IMG/VR virus record: IMGVR_UViG_3300044712_001205
Coordinates: 4,534 to 68,533 of that record
DNA length: 64,000 bases
Reading direction: 5' to 3' (one strand)
From: a virus
Part shown: positions 21,716 through 24,837 of the stretch, in pieces
How positions within the stretch are numbered: the stretch's first letter is position 1
Layout of the letters: each line of letters opens with the position of its first letter
The notes under the pieces: generated by a model
Told to the model about the DNA's origin: nothing
The model's input: only the letters and a program-made list of their open reading frames with translations
Databases searched by the model: none
Program-made: the position numbers and the translations under genes

Positions 21716-23185
21716 TTATTTAGATTGTGGAGGGTTAACCGGTACAGTTTTGTACACACGTTTCACAGGATCCCACACAGTTTTACGAGGACCTTGTCCG
21801 GCTAACTGTTTGAGACGGCTCATGGCATCGTCAAAACGATCTGCATCCATATTGCCAACTTTGTTGCCCTCGCCTAGGTCTCGATCGTTGGAATAATCGC
21901 CCGAGTCATAATCTGATTTACGAGCACTCTTAAAGTATGCAAAGTCAGGGTCGTGGAATTTACCATCATTACCTAGGCTGCCGGTTTTGGGATCATCCCA
22001 TTCTTTGCGTTTTACTACGGTGCGGCCAGGAGTTGTTGTAACACTCACAGGGCCATTTGCACCTCTAAACTCGCGTTCGCTTTCGTCGACACCTTCTTTG
22101 GGCACACAGTTGGGAACCATGCGGTCACCTTTTTTCTTCATGCCTACTTGACGATGTGTGTCCCAACACTTTTCGTCTAGTTGTTCTTCAAATGTAGACA
22201 CAGGGGGAACTCTGGATGAAGTTTTACGCTTAGCCATTTCACGCTTGTATGCTTCTGGATCAGTCTGCTTTAGTTTTGCTAAACGCTGTTTTTCTTTTTC
22301 TATTTTAGCAATCATACGCTGTTCAACATCGCCGGCGTCGTCTTCCGCCACACCTTCTTTTTTAGTGAATACATTGTGACCAAATCTATCACCATATTGT
22401 TGTGTATTGATAGTGACAGTTCTGCCAGGATATGTCAAATATGAATTGTGGGCACGGCCCATAGCATCATACTTGTGACGGTATTCACCTGGGGTGCCGT
22501 GTGCTGTGATATACTTTTCAACTTCACTGTGATGTGCTTGTTCAAAATCGTTGTTGATGCCTTCCGCCACATCTTGCTCTTGACCTTGCACATCAGCAAT
22601 AGCACCGTTGGTAAGTTTAACCATCATAGGACCTTGTGGGCCAAACATACGCTTGAAGCCTGCCGTAGTCATACGACCAGCTTCTGTGCCGTCTCGGATA
22701 TCGCCAATGCGCTTGTCAGTGATAGCAATGGCACTACCACGTGGTAGTATTTTCTTACCATTAGCAGACTTCATTGATAGCAAGTCTTGTAGAATAGCAT
22801 CAGCGTTATCTAGTACAACCTGGCGTGCTTCTTCTGGACTGGTTGCCAGTACATAATAGTATCTACCGCTGTAATCACTGTACTTGCCGCGATAGTAGTT
22901 GTTCATGATAACAACTTGCCACGACTTCAAACCTTTTAACGCATTAAATGTTGTCTCTGGGCTTGCCTCTGCTACACCTTCAGACTTGTTGCCCCAGTTG
23001 GCAGCACCTTTTTTACGGCACTGAACCAAGGCACCCGACGCATAAGCCGATGGCCATACTTTGTAGCGACTGCGAACCTTGTGATAGCAAGCATCTTTCT
23101 TTTCTGCCAACAACAAGTCGCTGAAAGCAGGGCCGCCACACTCAGGACAGGTTTGCGGTGATTCAAATAAGTCGTCTACAATCAT
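21716..23185 (-). CDS. Modular putative head-internal polyprotein (GVAE linkers, Cys-pair micro-domains)
   Basis: MIVDDLFE leader; EGVAEA, QDVAEG, EGVAED and EGVDES linkers. Confidence 0.75.
   Translation of the reverse strand: MIVDDLFESPQTCPECGGPAFSDLLLAEKKDACYHKVRSRYKVWPSAYASGALVQCRKKGAANWGNKSEGVAEASPETTFNALKGLKSWQVVIMNNYYRGKYSDYSGRYYYVLATSPEEARQVVLDNADAILQDLLSMKSANGKKILPRGSAIAITDKRIGDIRDGTEAGRMTTAGFKRMFGPQGPMMVKLTNGAIADVQGQEQDVAEGINNDFEQAHHSEVEKYITAHGTPGEYRHKYDAMGRAHNSYLTYPGRTVTINTQQYGDRFGHNVFTKKEGVAEDDAGDVEQRMIAKIEKEKQRLAKLKQTDPEAYKREMAKRKTSSRVPPVSTFEEQLDEKCWDTHRQVGMKKKGDRMVPNCVPKEGVDESEREFRGANGPVSVTTTPGRTVVKRKEWDDPKTGSLGNDGKFHDPDFAYFKSARKSDYDSGDYSNDRDLGEGNKVGNMDADRFDDAMSRLKQLAGQGPRKTVWDPVKRVYKTVPVNPPQSK
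22080..22981 (-). repeat. Further copies of the 17-bp GVAE repeat
   Basis: Copies at 22341, 22560 and 22965, degenerate copy at 22080; spacings 261, 219 and 405 nt. Confidence 0.75.
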
Positions 23186-23442
23186 TTTTTCTTAGTAGCC
23201 ACGTTGATGGCTGCTCCTTTGCGTTCTGGATTGGGGTCTTGTCTACGTTTTCTAGCAGCAGCCGAAGCACGACCTTTTTTGCCCAGGGCATGTGCTTTTG
23301 ACTGTGGCAAACACTTGGGCTTGCCTTCGCTATCGTCGCCCCGAGCACAAGCACCACGAATTTTACCGTCAGGGCCAAATCGCACCCACTTTTCTTTGAA
23401 CCACTTGCGTAGATTCTCGTTGACGAATTCGTTTGCTCGCAT
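23182..23442 (-). CDS. Small basic protein with MRANEFVNE leader
   Basis: LRKWFKEKW...C...KPKCLP; TAAATA 7 nt upstream. Confidence 0.75.
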   Translation of the reverse strand: MRANEFVNENLRKWFKEKWVRFGPDGKIRGACARGDDSEGKPKCLPQSKAHALGKKGRASAAARKRRQDPNPERKGAAINVATKKK

Positions 23443-23448
23443 AATAAG

Positions 23449-23934
23449 TTATTTACCAGCTTTGGCCAGTGCAGCACCCTTGTTGAAACTGGGGCTCCAA
23501 CTCAAGGGATCACGTTGATTTCTTTGGTACCATGCATAGCCAGCACGATGTCCAGAGCAGTCGTATGTACATTCGCTGCCCAGGAAAGTGAGTTCATCCA
23601 GCTGTTCAGGTATTTCAATCTCGGGTGTGTCGCTTTGATACGTGCGATTTTGCACAGCAGTTTTGAACTGAAAGCGCATTTGGTCAGCAGAGATCTTACG
23701 CAGCCCTACACTGACACCAGAGGCAGAATCACGAATCCATATCTTGGAACCAGAATCCATGGACTCTAATTCATCTCGCACAGCAGGTAGTTTACGAAAC
23801 ACACCGTCCACAGCTCGTGGATCGATTTCTCTCATGTACACCTGCTCAATGGCATGATCATCGACCACAATCACAATATCGCCAATGCGTATTGATCCTA
23901 CAGCAGCCTCATTTATAAACTCACGTGCTTTCAT
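23449..23934 (-). CDS. Hypothetical protein with MKAREFINE leader and C-terminal CTYDCSGHRAGY module
   Basis: Start set at 23934, 7 nt after TATAAATA. Confidence 0.7.
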   Translation of the reverse strand: MKAREFINEAAVGSIRIGDIVIVVDDHAIEQVYMREIDPRAVDGVFRKLPAVRDELESMDSGSKIWIRDSASGVSVGLRKISADQMRFQFKTAVQNRTYQSDTPEIEIPEQLDELTFLGSECTYDCSGHRAGYAWYQRNQRDPLSWSPSFNKGAALAKAGK

Positions 23935-23949
23935 ATACAAGTATTTATA

Positions 23950-24400
23950 GGGATCGCTGAGCGATCCAAGCTTCGCTTTCAGCTCGCTTTGTTTATAAAA
24001 ACACACAAGAGATATTTCGCTAGATTGTGAGGCCATACGACACCCAGAAATTCTGGGCGTCAAGACATTCGCTGAGTTGCTCAGCCACACTTGTGACAGC
24101 AGGTATTTGTGTTGTCTACTGCTCTGGGCTCTGTACCTTACCCCACCTGCTACGATTTTTAAAGCGACTTCGGTGTCAAGTGTCGCTATGGCAGTGTTAG
24201 ACAATAAGCTAGCTCACGCTACGCTCAACCCGTACGACTGTTCTAACGCTACTGCCACGGGGCAGACGTTTTCTCTGGGCATCCCTGCGTCACAGGGGTA
24301 GAGAACAGAAGCCTCTTGTACAAAGAAGAGGATGGTTACCGTGAGACATCACCACGGATTCACCAGCGGAATATCAACCGGCCCGCCAACCTTGTGTTGT
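23950..24400 (-). ncRNA. Candidate large structured ncRNA (or structured DNA element)
   Basis: At least ten helices, with ACACAAG (24003) / CTTGTGT (24391) closing most of the region; strand inferred from flanking genes. Confidence 0.55.
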
Positions 24401-24423
24401 ACTAATTTTTTAAAAGATAGTGA

Positions 24424-24837
24424 TTAAGTTATGGGACCGCCTTCGACCCATGCATCGCAGGTTCGTTTGGCAGCACATTTGAATTTGAGAAATTTACAAT
24501 ATCCGAGATGACCAGCATCCACAGTGTCCTGTGGGTCTGATCCGGGCTCGGCCCCGATACCTTTGGCCATACAATCCATCATGCTTTCGCTCATGTCAAA
24601 TGCTGCACAATTACCGCAGCGAGCGCTCTTGGCGTCGTCGGGATCACTCATGTTCCATTCGTCGGCTTTGGCTTGCCAAAACTCTTCGTTGGGTGCGTTG
24701 GGATCTAATGGACCGTATCTGTATTCGTCGATGGCTTTTTGTCTGTTCTTTAAGTTTAGGTCAATGTTTTGTGTGGCAGGAGGACAGCCACGTTCCACGG
24801 CTTCCATAAAATTGATATAGTCTCTGATAGTTTTCAT
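24424..24837 (-). CDS. Cys-rich protein with HiPIP-like spacing
   Basis: CGNCAAF...GYCKFLKFKCAAKRTCDAW. Confidence 0.55.
   Translation of the reverse strand: MKTIRDYINFMEAVERGCPPATQNIDLNLKNRQKAIDEYRYGPLDPNAPNEEFWQAKADEWNMSDPDDAKSARCGNCAAFDMSESMMDCMAKGIGAEPGSDPQDTVDAGHLGYCKFLKFKCAAKRTCDAWVEGGPIT

What the first reader, a model, noticed from the sequence alone, without database searches (positions are those of the whole stretch)
23950..24400. ~450-nt densely base-paired ORF-free region: candidate large phage ncRNA
Seen (plus coordinates): closing helix ACACAAG 24003 / CTTGTGT 24391; hairpin 24039-24061; GCTGAG/CTCAGC 24071-24085; AGCAGGT 24098 / ACCTGCT 24145; AGCGAC 24163 / GTCGCT 24182; TGGCAGT+GTTAGA 24189-24201 with TCTAAC+ACTGCCA 24242-24257; TTCTCT/AGAGAA enclosing CCCTG/CAGGG 24271-24305; CCTCTT/AAGAGG 24312-24331; CCGTG/CACGG 24339-24357; GGATCGCT/AGCGATCC 23951-23967. 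This is the longest non-coding gap I found in an otherwise tightly packed window. I could not recognise tRNA, tmRNA, RNase P or intron signatures. Inference: a multi-domain RNA of unknown class, or a structured replication origin/priming region.
Basis: partly seen in the sequence, partly recalled or inferred. Interest (0 to 1): 0.78.

Follow-up and report, generated by a model that had tools for sequence, protein, structure and literature searches.

The report
Twin-box structured RNA gene, jumbo phage
The gene-free gap holds a real gene for a knotted non-coding RNA of about 450 bases in an uncultured giant freshwater phage; it carries the same short word twice, and its job is still unknown.

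Summary
Window 23951-24402 (minus strand) is a stand-alone gene for a ~450-nt pseudoknotted non-coding RNA. An invariant 19-mer from it finds 46 IMG/VR contigs, 108 metagenome contigs and 2 MAG contigs. In 35 distinct homologues, 97.7% of cells in 50 proposed pairs are paired (84.3% shuffled, 32-42% slid) and 24 pairs changed on both sides. G-U pairs set the strand. No Rfam family, tRNA or tmRNA matches. The extended ORF is broken in 6 of 6 close relatives, and there is no GC-skew turn.

The RNA carries two identical 6-7-nt boxes (here AGCGAA, 24068-24073 and 24016-24021). They differ between phages but match each other in 111 of 114 rows. This scan has already reported this "twin-box" family on other DNA, with Polynucleobacter-1 (RF01718) as closest known. 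The window RNA is a divergent second type:
- It has no RF01718 match.
- 3 of 5 near-complete genomes that hold it also hold a true RF01718 RNA elsewhere, with a different box word.
- A model of its 3' half reaches one such RNA at E=0.002.

Function is unknown. My best guess is that the boxes are a paired address read by base pairing. No expression data were obtained.

The parts
23951..24402 (-). Whole RNA gene as inferred: 5' end about 24398-24404, 3' end at the last hairpin
   Evidence: Conservation starts and stops here in close relatives. Contigs of related phages match only 24008-24398, with loose ends at both places.
24008..24398 (-). Conserved core shared by all homologues
   Evidence: nhmmer and alignments; loose ends.
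24365..24387 (-). Hairpin H1 (GGCGG/CCGCU)
   Evidence: 98.3% of cells paired; 2 of 5 pairs changed on both sides.
24339..24357 (-). Hairpin H2 (CCGUG/CACGG)
   Evidence: Different stem letters in other clades (GCAUC/GAUGC). The MAFFT register is shifted, so it was judged by eye and by single folds; two hairpins H2+H3 appear in 18 of 31 distinct sequences.
24311..24332 (-). Hairpin H3 (CCUCUU/AAGAGG)
   Evidence: Stem letters differ between clades.
24238..24308 (-). Helix Ha (CUGUUCU 24302-24308 with AGAACAG 24238-24244), enclosing H4 (24282-24300) and H5 (24245-24270)
   Evidence: Ha: 7 of 7 pairs changed on both sides, 98.0% paired. H4+H5 fold as two hairpins in 32 of 34 distinct sequences.
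24163..24187 (-). Hairpin Hb (AGCGAC/GUCGCU) with conserved loop UGACACCGAAG
   Evidence: 6 of 6 pairs changed on both sides, 100% paired.
24118..24195 (-). Pseudoknot: PK1 (ACUGC 24191-24195 with GCAGU 24118-24122) crosses PK2 (GCAGGU 24145-24150 with ACCUGC 24099-24104)
   Evidence: PK1: 5 of 5 pairs changed on both sides, 100% paired. PK2: 4 of 6 pairs changed on both sides, 99.5% paired. Mutual information agrees.
24123..24143 (-). Invariant 21-mer GGGUAAGGUACAGAGCCCAGA inside the pseudoknot
   Evidence: Invariant in 35 of 35 aligned sequences. Its 19-mer finds 46 viral, 108 metagenome and 2 MAG stretches.
24068..24073 (-). Box 1 (AGCGAA), preceded by CAACUC
24016..24021 (-). Box 2 (AGCGAA), preceded by CAAUCU
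24039..24061 (-). Hairpin Hc between the two boxes
   Evidence: 95.1% paired; changes on one side only, to wobble pairs.
24038..24044 (-). 3' strand of PK3 (GGUGUCG), which pairs with the Hb loop UGACACC (24172-24178). It cannot form together with the outer part of Hc.
   Evidence: 7 pairs, 245 of 245 cells paired; A-U to G-C in 7 sequences.
24075..24079 (-). CAACU, proposed partner of GGUUG at 24226-24230 (helix Px). It mirrors AAUCU (24022-24026) with AGGUU (24388-24392) (helix P1).
   Evidence: 96.0% and 92.6% paired, but with no change on both sides, so both are possible but unproven.
23968..23989 (-). Tail hairpin with loop GAGCUGAAAGCGA
   Evidence: Predicted. GAGCUGA(U)AAGCGAA recurs in the tail of the RF01718-type RNA of L129.
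23951..23967 (-). Last hairpin GGAUCGC-UCA-GCGAUCC, a possible 3' end. It has no U tail.
   Evidence: Compensatory GGAUUGC/GCAAUCC in L094 and L091. Not called a terminator by the scan.
24424..24837 (-). Upstream gene p4 (137 aa, no Pfam or PHROG family); not part of the RNA
23449..23934 (-). Downstream gene p3 (161 aa from the ATG at 23934); its upstream extension to 24204 is not coding
   Evidence: In 6 of 6 close relatives the homologous frame meets stop codons inside the RNA.

Best explanation
Window 23951-24402, minus strand, is a stand-alone gene for a ~450-nt, multiply pseudoknotted non-coding RNA. The host phage is an uncultured ~320-350-kb phage with a T4-type replisome.

The RNA belongs to the uncatalogued 'twin-box' phage RNAs as a divergent second type. 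It shares their 3' plan: a conserved core, then CUC-box, a hairpin, UCU-box, a tail hairpin and a last hairpin. It lacks a detectable Polynucleobacter-1 (RF01718) 5' domain.

Shown here: the gene, its strand, most helices, the crossing helices, the rule that box 1 equals box 2, and one copy per genome.

Inferred:
- It acts in trans as a folded RNA or RNA-protein particle. The invariant 21-nt centre would be the working or binding site.
- The two identical single-stranded boxes each sit just 3' of a near-identical helix strand. I read them as a paired 'address'.
- My preferred reading, at about 30%, is that each box base-pairs with the same 6-7-nt word on a nucleic-acid partner, and that each RNA has its own address.

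The biological role is unknown.
For: Covariation. On 35 distinct sequences, 97.7% of 1748 cells are paired, against 84.3% in shuffles and 32-42% when partners are slid. 24 of 50 pairs changed on both sides, in 239 cells. 0 of 500 shuffles reach the observed score. PK1 crosses PK2. PK3 is paired in 245 of 245 cells.

Strand. G-U pairs are kept, for example 14-412 GU in 35 of 35 and 277-288 UG in 35 of 35.

Spread. The invariant 19-mer occurs in 46 IMG/VR, 108 metagenome and 2 MAG stretches.

Stand-alone gene. The RNA is always intergenic and its neighbours change: NUDIX in 12 loci and a CHASE2-cyclase in 11 loci, among others, out of 42.

Copy number. There is one match each in 4 of 5 near-complete genomes.

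Constraint. The RNA is 90-94% identical in three loci whose adjacent p4 protein is only 76-77% identical.

Boxes.
- The first six letters are identical in 40 of 40 sequences and in 111 of 114 rows, 94 of them distinct.
- There are at least 12 and at least 14 state changes on a tree built without the box columns.
- Most sequences hold no 6-nt complement of the box inside the RNA.
- The RF01718-type and the window-type RNA of one genome carry different boxes in 3 of 3 genomes. This fits a per-RNA address better than one shared protein reader.

Family link.
- 3 of 5 genomes with this RNA hold a true RF01718 hit elsewhere.
- The 3' parts of those RNAs show CUC-box ... hairpin ... UCU-box and the tail motif GAGCUGA(U)AAGCGAA.
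- A covariance model built only from window-type 3' halves finds the RF01718-type RNA of L129 at 26 bits, E=0.0019, in the expected place.
Against: - No transcript evidence. No listed run is on record as RNA, and the three 'RNA?' runs that I laid are flagged as probably DNA.
- No sigma-70-type promoter was found, and the last hairpin has no U tail. The RNA may therefore be cut out of a longer transcript.
- The link to the RF01718-type RNAs is weak by score. A sequence profile sees none of the 3. The covariance model reaches 1 of 3 at E<0.01; the other two score 11.9 and 10.7 bits (E 2.5 and 4.6), no better than background hits. E-values of that model are rough.
- Helices P1 and Px have no change on both sides.
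- For the address reading, no partner word was found. The complement TTCGCT is not enriched in the window (11 seen, 9.5 expected on the gene strand) and does not occur in pairs. No complementary pair at 30-60 nt spacing turned up in 5 genomes.
- A wobble-tolerant pairing partner would allow boxes that differ by G/A, and these are not seen.
- Two rows, L185 and L204, break the identity rule by one letter.
Confidence: 0.72

Rival explanations
1. The identity of the boxes is needed only within the molecule. On this reading the two boxes are donor and acceptor sites of a strand-transfer or 'hop'. A polymerase that copies the RNA would stall after one box, at the helix just beyond it, and re-anneal its nascent end to the other box. 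It would then skip or re-copy the ~52-nt unit. The idea is recalled from the ACA-1/ACA-2 motifs of the DRT2 ncRNA, retroviral R and hepadnaviral DR1/DR2.
For: - Identity is strict rather than wobble-tolerant (111 of 114 rows).
- The words drift freely, with at least 12 changes.
- Most sequences hold no complement of the box anywhere in the RNA.
- Two paralogues in one genome carry different words in 3 of 3 genomes.
- Each box lies directly 3' of a helix strand.
All of these need only box 1 = box 2.
Against: - No reverse transcriptase (PF00078) in 0 of 5 near-complete genomes.
- No polymerase known to me copies RNA in T4-type phages.
- There is no product to point to.
- The comparison systems are recalled from memory, not tested here.
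Confidence: 0.1
2. The two 'helix plus 3' overhang' modules are twin binding sites for one dimeric, or twice-bound, RNA-binding protein. The RNA is the scaffold of a ribonucleoprotein.
For: - Two near-identical modules exist: GGUUG/CAACUC-box and AGGUUG/CAAUCU-box.
- The boxes are single-stranded and purine-rich.
- The GGAUGA word of some members resembles the GGA motif bound by CsrA dimers (recalled from memory).
Against: - The word differs between the two paralogous RNAs of one genome in 3 of 3 genomes. One protein would not then demand identity, and two co-evolving proteins would be needed.
- No conserved neighbouring gene exists.
- Most words (AGCGAA, AGCAAA, AACAAA) have no GGA.
Confidence: 0.1
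3. A mobile or selfish RNA-gene cassette, or a degenerate intron, that spreads between phages. Its conservation would reflect recent transfer rather than a function for the phage.
For: - The RNA is 90-94% identical where the adjacent protein is 76-77% identical.
- Only 3 of 80 loci around p4 homologues hold it.
- Neighbourhoods are mosaic.
- L137 joins a 5' part like the L103 clade to a 3' module like the window's.
- Earlier notes of this scan place the RF01718-type copies beside GIY-YIG nuclease genes; I did not test this here.
Against: - No intron family matches.
- The flanks are complete genes that differ between loci, not halves of one gene.
- Compensatory changes across about 94 distinct sequences show long purifying selection on the fold.
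- None of the 10 common neighbour clusters that I scanned is a nuclease.
Confidence: 0.06
4. A cis-acting structured leader or trailer of a neighbouring gene: the 3' UTR of p4 or the 5' leader of p3.
For: The gap to the p4 stop codon is only about 20 nt in six loci, and no own promoter was found.
Against: Upstream and downstream genes differ between loci, including genes on the opposite strand. The size and pseudoknots are far beyond known leaders.
Confidence: 0.03
5. A DNA element (replication origin or priming region), or a protein-coding stretch (the extended ORF 23449-24204).
For: Dense inverted repeats are present. In the window alone the frame is open from 24204 to 23449.
Against: - There is no GC-skew turn at 24 kb.
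- Kept G-U pairs are strand-specific.
- The frame is broken in 6 of 6 close relatives, and loop indels are not multiples of three.
Confidence: 0.02

Closest known systems
Polynucleobacter-1 RNA motif (Rfam RF01718; Weinberg et al. 2010, PMC2864571; I saw only its table row), together with the full-length 'twin-box' phage RNAs reported earlier in this scan
   Same: - An orphan, structured RNA of freshwater Burkholderiales and phage-type sequences.
- The RF01718-bearing RNAs of related jumbo phages (L128, L129, L130) continue 3' into the same plan as the window RNA: CUC-box, a G+C-rich hairpin, UCU-box with the identical word, a tail hairpin with GAGCUGA(U)AAGCGAA, and a last hairpin.
- A model of the window type's 3' half hits L129 at E=0.0019.
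   Different: - The window RNA and 32 relatives tested never match RF01718, even at E up to 10.
- Its 5' two thirds (H1-H5, Ha) and the invariant 21-mer have no counterpart that I could align.
- It is a second gene at another place in genomes that also hold the RF01718 type.
- In the loci examined it is not beside a nuclease gene.
GOLLD and ROOL large ncRNAs (abstract of bioRxiv 10.1101/2024.12.08.627333 seen in a search listing; their link to phages and tRNA genes is recalled)
   Same: Large, ornate, function-unknown RNAs found in phages and metagenomes. Here too, 7 of 19 related loci scanned carry tRNA arrays and/or a permuted tmRNA gene within the fetched stretch, and in one locus directly upstream (L085).
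   Different: There is no match to either Rfam model. The RNA is smaller (~450 nt). The twin variable boxes have no counterpart that I know of. Whether it multimerises is untested.
HEARO / omega RNA of IscB (recalled, not tested beyond the Rfam scan)
   Same: A large pseudoknotted orphan RNA that turned out to be the guide scaffold of a neighbouring nuclease. This is the precedent for reading variable words as an address.
   Different: There is no Rfam match. No nuclease gene lies beside the window type. The variable part is 6-7 nt and occurs twice, rather than being one long guide.
Stable RNAs C and D of the phage T4 tRNA region (recalled)
   Same: Stable phage RNAs of unknown function encoded among tRNA genes of a T4-type phage.
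   Different: They are much shorter, about 120-140 nt as I recall. No sequence comparison was made here.

Membership tests
Polynucleobacter-1 (RF01718) | Covariance-model match at or above the gathering score (37 bits) | tested here: not met
   No match in the window at gathering score, nor at E up to 10 in 23700-24650. The best match in the whole record is 7.8 bits at another place. None of 19 + 13 related loci match at the element.
Twin-box phage RNA (working name of this scan; uncatalogued) | Stand-alone intergenic gene of about 400-500 nt with crossing helices | tested here: met
Twin-box phage RNA (working name of this scan; uncatalogued) | Two copies of one variable 6-7-nt word, after CUC and UCU, with a hairpin between them | tested here: met
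   AGCGAA at 24068-24073 and 24016-24021. The words are identical in 111 of 114 rows, and nine word types were seen in all.
Twin-box phage RNA (working name of this scan; uncatalogued) | The first third is the RF01718 domain | tested here: not met
Twin-box phage RNA (working name of this scan; uncatalogued) | Detectable homology of the 3' half to RF01718-bearing RNAs | tested here: inconclusive
   Covariance model R1 gives L129 26 bits (E=0.0019), L130 11.9 bits (E=2.5) and L128 10.7 bits (E=4.6), all at the expected place. Background hits also occur near E=4. The nhmmer profile finds none.
Known large RNAs in Rfam 15 (RNase P, tmRNA, group I and II introns, GOLLD, ROOL, HEARO, OLE, 6S, SRP) | Match to the family model | tested here: not met
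   0 matches in the window at gathering score. At E up to 10 there are only two chance-level hits, aspS and SpR10. None at the element in 32 related loci.
tRNA / tmRNA | ARAGORN detection | tested here: not met
   0 genes in the window.
Protein-coding gene (extension of 23449-23934 to 24204) | Reading frame kept open in relatives | tested here: not met
   Stop codons appear in the homologous frame in 6 of 6 close relatives.
Replication origin | Turn of cumulative GC skew; strand-neutral repeats | tested here: not met
   The skew falls steadily across 18-30 kb, and G-U pairs are strand-specific. Iterons and AT-rich unwinding elements were not searched for.
Retron / DRT-type template RNA | A reverse transcriptase gene in the same genome | tested here: not met
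   PF00078 is found in 0 of 5 near-complete genomes; the controls ring in 3 of 14.

The most novel reading that the evidence does not exclude
The twin boxes are a self-consistency device rather than a binding site. They would be donor and acceptor of a templated strand transfer, or another 'hop', across the ~52-nt hairpin unit. That would make this a phage RNA that is copied or read discontinuously, and it would explain four things at once:
- The words drift freely.
- They always stay identical within a molecule.
- They have no complement in the RNA.
- They differ between two paralogous RNAs in the same genome.
Probability: 0.08. Interest if true: 0.9.

Novelty: new variant of a known kind. 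Interest (0 to 1): 0.6.

Why it matters
Large RNAs with several pseudoknots and an invariant centre are rare. Those that have been explained turned out to be ribozymes, guides or core RNP scaffolds.

This one is widespread in giant freshwater phages and absent from Rfam. It has a feature I know from no characterised RNA: two short words that change repeatedly in evolution yet stay identical to each other. The same phage can carry two such RNAs with different words.

Working out what reads or uses the boxes could reveal a new kind of RNA-based specificity in phage infection.

The value of this window within the scan is narrower, because the family was already reported on other DNA. What this window adds:
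- It defines the divergent second type by its invariant 21-mer.
- It gives about 94 distinct sequences for that type.
- It counts the coordinated box changes.
- It shows that paralogues in one genome carry different boxes.

Tried and rejected
Expression. The look-up of sequencing runs listed no holder on record as RNA. I laid three 'RNA?' runs and one DNA run. All are contigs, and the three are flagged as probably DNA, so nothing can be said about transcription.

Cultured model.
- blastn of the 1.5-kb stretch and of the 159-nt core against 50,697 GenBank phage records found nothing.
- RF01718 and my model R1 gave no significant match in Sinorhizobium phage Phosso, Agrobacterium phage Atu_ph07 or Vibrio phage 2.275.O (best E 0.385 and 0.608).

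Neighbour search. The search for related loci with p3 found no relative.

Internal partner of the boxes. Most sequences hold no 6-nt complement, with G-U allowed, and there is no constant place for one.

Direct antiparallel pairing of box 1 with box 2. I rejected this because it predicts complementary centres (for example CA with UG), not identical words, and only identical words are seen.

Genome-wide target.
- TTCGCT is not enriched and not paired in the window.
- The pattern RGATGAA-N30-60-RGATGAA in 5 genomes returned the RNA genes themselves plus 4 other places, all on the same strand as the RNA genes. No complementary pair was found on the opposite strand.
- Other spacings were not tried.

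Alternative helix GUUAGA/UCUAAC. It is not kept; L099 and others break it.

RNase P, group I intron, T-box, box H/ACA, ribosomal bypass and tmRNA-tag readings. I considered these from memory. I dropped them for lack of any model match, because box variants differ in length by one nucleotide, or because of the lack of a conserved frame.

Host.
- The phage tmRNAs match the betaproteobacterial model.
- One 6-kb contig with the RNA is binned as Polynucleobacter sp..
- Its genes do not show whether it is phage or bacterial DNA.
- I treat this as a hint only.

Literature.
- 'Polynucleobacter-1' occurs in one paper of the library.
- Searches for large structured phage RNAs gave no description of this RNA; for these I saw listings only.
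- Fremin et al. 2023 (PMC10690425, passages read) report candidates of 29-151 nt. Parts of this RNA could be in their supplements, which I could not see.
Full report
What is there.

The finding lies in a 489-base gap (23935-24423) between two minus-strand genes: p4 (24424-24837, 137 aa) and p3 (23449-23934, 161 aa from its ATG). Neither gene has a Pfam family.

The window is part of a 68.5-kb IMG/VR virus record that CheckV rates 20% complete. Relatives are contigs of 300-354 kb. The phage has a T4-type DNA polymerase and clamp loader. Its polymerase is 52% identical to that of Sinorhizobium phage Phosso and 47% identical to that of Agrobacterium phage Atu_ph07, the nearest cultured phages.

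Is it more than chance?

The minus strand folds better than shuffles (z = -3.19, 0 of 100 shuffles as low); the plus strand gives z = -2.29. Rfam gives nothing in the window at gathering scores, and only two chance-level hits at E up to 10. ARAGORN finds no tRNA or tmRNA.

Homologues.

Of 80 loci fetched around p4 homologues, only 3 hold the element. There it is 90-94% identical, although p4 itself is only 76-77% identical. Those four sequences already show compensatory changes and G-U/A-U exchanges that fix the RNA strand as minus.

An invariant 19-mer from the centre then found 46 IMG/VR stretches. Later it found 108 metagenome stretches, of which 80 were listed, and 2 MAG contigs. nhmmer recovered the element in 49 loci, which gave 42 distinct sequences counting the window.

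Structure.

On a MAFFT alignment of 35 full-length distinct sequences (A3) I wrote nine helices, chosen from mutual information and pair counts, and had them counted.
- 97.7% of 1748 cells are standard pairs. Shuffles give 84.3% and slid partners give 32-42%.
- 24 of 50 pairs changed on both sides, in 239 cells.
- 0 of 500 shuffles reach the observed covariation score.
- The structure was derived from these same sequences, which favours it against the slid controls.

The best helices are Ha (7 of 7 pairs changed on both sides), Hb (6 of 6), PK1 (5 of 5) and PK2 (4 of 6). PK1 (24191-24195 with 24118-24122) crosses PK2 (24145-24150 with 24099-24104), so the centre is a pseudoknot. It encloses a 21-mer, GGGUAAGGUACAGAGCCCAGA (24123-24143), that is invariant in 35 of 35 sequences.

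A third long-range pairing, PK3, joins the Hb loop UGACACC (24172-24178) to GGUGUCG (24038-24044). It is paired in 245 of 245 cells, and A-U is exchanged for G-C in 7 sequences. PK3 cannot form together with the outer pairs of hairpin Hc, which are less well kept (95.1% paired). Either the RNA switches between the two, or only the inner part of Hc is real.

H4 and H5 fold as two hairpins in 32 of 34 distinct sequences. H2 and H3 do so in 18 of 31; MAFFT puts H2 out of register, so I did not count it.

Helices P1 (AGGUU 24388-24392 with AAUCU 24022-24026) and Px (GGUUG 24226-24230 with CAACU 24075-24079) are possible but show no change on both sides.

What it is not.
- The frame that is open in the window from 24204 into p3 meets stop codons in 6 of 6 close relatives, because of a 2-nt loop difference among other changes.
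- Cumulative GC skew falls steadily across 18-30 kb with no turn at the element.
- The neighbours change from locus to locus. NUDIX is upstream in 12 loci. A CHASE2-cyclase is beside the element in 11 loci. A fatty-acid desaturase, DUF4337, AhpC and CMD proteins occur elsewhere, some on the opposite strand.
- So the element is neither a leader or trailer of one gene nor an intron in a split gene.
- There is one copy in each of 4 of 5 near-complete genomes.

The twin boxes.

Near the 3' end the word AGCGAA occurs twice: after CAACUC at 24068-24073 and after CAAUCU at 24016-24021. Hairpin Hc lies between the two copies.

Other phages have other words, but the two copies match. They match in 40 of 40 sequences with both boxes. 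After metagenome and MAG sequences were added to the 3'-domain alignment, they match in 111 of 114 rows, 94 of them distinct. Of the three exceptions, L184 is a shift of register (both boxes read AGCGAG), and L185 and L204 differ by one letter.

Nine words were seen in all: AGCGAA, AGCAAA, AACAAA, AACGAA, AGAUGA(A), GGAUGA(A), AGUGGA, AGCGAG and AGAUGAG (the last in L107). On a quick likelihood tree of the 94 distinct rows, built without the box columns and with L184 left out of the counts, box 1 changes state at least 12 times and box 2 at least 14 times. Recombination, which L137 suggests, could inflate these counts.

Most sequences contain no complement of their box. The roughly 30 nt around each box are also alike (GUGUGGCUGAGCAACUC-box against GUAUGGCCUCACAAUCU-box). 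Each box follows a strand that can pair with a GGUUG segment.

Relation to what is known.

After I had seen the boxes, the scan's own notes showed that earlier agents had described a 'twin-box' RNA family in aquatic T4-like and jumbo phages, with Polynucleobacter-1 (RF01718) as its catalogued 5' third. They had also met look-alikes of this very sequence in other genomes (e1-5366687, e1-5366695). I tested this relation as follows.
- RF01718 does not match the window RNA or any of 32 relatives, even at E up to 10.
- 3 of 5 near-complete genomes that hold the window type have a true RF01718 hit (79-112 bits) at another place.
- Those RNAs continue into CUC-GGAUGAA (or AGAUGAA), a G+C-rich hairpin, UCU plus the same word, a tail with GAGCUGA(U)AAGCGAA, and a last hairpin.
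- A sequence profile of the window type sees none of them.
- A covariance model of its 3' half (R1, 151 positions, 17 pairs) finds L129 at 26 bits, E=0.0019. It finds L130 and L128 at the expected place, but with scores (11.9 and 10.7 bits) no better than background.

I therefore file the window RNA as a divergent second type of that family. This rests on shared architecture plus one weak model hit.

In each of the three genomes with both types, the two RNAs carry different words: G001 has GGAUGA and AGAUGAA, G002 has AGCGAA and GGAUGAA, and G004 has AGAUGA and GGAUGAA.

How it may work.

The gene, the fold and the box rule are shown. The rest is inferred.

An invariant centre inside a pseudoknot suggests a catalytic or binding site for something universal. 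The boxes look like a specificity element. Three observations narrow what reads them:
- Identity is strict rather than wobble-tolerant.
- No complement lies in cis.
- The words differ between paralogues in one genome.

One shared protein reader fits these poorly. Two readings remain:
- Each RNA has its own address, read by base pairing on a partner that carries the word's complement twice. I put this at about 30%.
- Only identity within the molecule matters, as in template switching or hopping. I put this at about 10%. It has the better logical fit, but no enzyme is in sight: no RVT_1 in 0 of 5 genomes.

I found no partner word.

In 7 of 19 related loci, tRNA arrays and/or a permuted tmRNA gene lie within the fetched stretch, and in L085 directly upstream. 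This is a hint of a link with the phage's RNA-gene region and nothing more.

Limits.
- There is no expression evidence, no promoter and no U-tailed terminator.
- No cultured phage carries the RNA.
- The alignments are MAFFT alignments, not structure-aware ones.
- E-values of model R1 are rough.
- Supplements of the papers could not be read.

Noticed in passing
L085:2994-3385 (directly upstream of the RNA at 2507-2902); also L105, L084, L100, L107; tRNA arrays in L090, L084, L120: Related jumbo-phage contigs encode a permuted tmRNA (RF04321, 61-136 bits), which also matches the betaproteobacterial tmRNA model. They also carry arrays of up to about 17 tRNA genes close to the twin-box RNA.
   Followed up: partly
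window 23940-23947 (minus strand): TATAAATA, the T4 late-promoter word as I recall it, sits between the last hairpin of the RNA and the ATG of p3, only 5 nt before the ATG. The same word is present in L011 and L109.
   Followed up: no
window 21716-23442 (minus strand): The 86-aa gene (23182-23442) and the 489-aa gene (21716-23185) overlap by 4 nt and match successive parts of one PHROG (phrog_727, positions 106-196 and 265-315 of 450). They look like a split or fused gene pair.
   Followed up: no
loci L002-L081 around p4 homologues: p4, the 86-aa protein and a 42-aa C-terminal piece of p3 (residues 110-151) recur in many phages in changing order and orientation. This suggests a shuffled set of small gene modules.
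   Followed up: no
upstream of the RNA in L112, L088, L118, L105, L085, L120, L090: Three spaced copies of AGGC(A/U)C-like words lie within about 40 nt before the RNA start. This may be a phage-specific promoter or protein site. It is absent in the window.
   Followed up: no
L137:3999-4402 (contig in a Bacteroidetes MAG bin): This copy joins a 5' part like the L103 clade (whose word is AGAUGAA) to a 3' module nearly identical to the window's, with AGCGAA twice. It looks like recombination inside the RNA gene.
   Followed up: no
G003:C1:246194-246254: A further GGATGAA ... GGATGAA pair 54 nt apart, outside the RNA gene, in a genome with no RF01718 hit. It may be coding sequence by chance.
   Followed up: no
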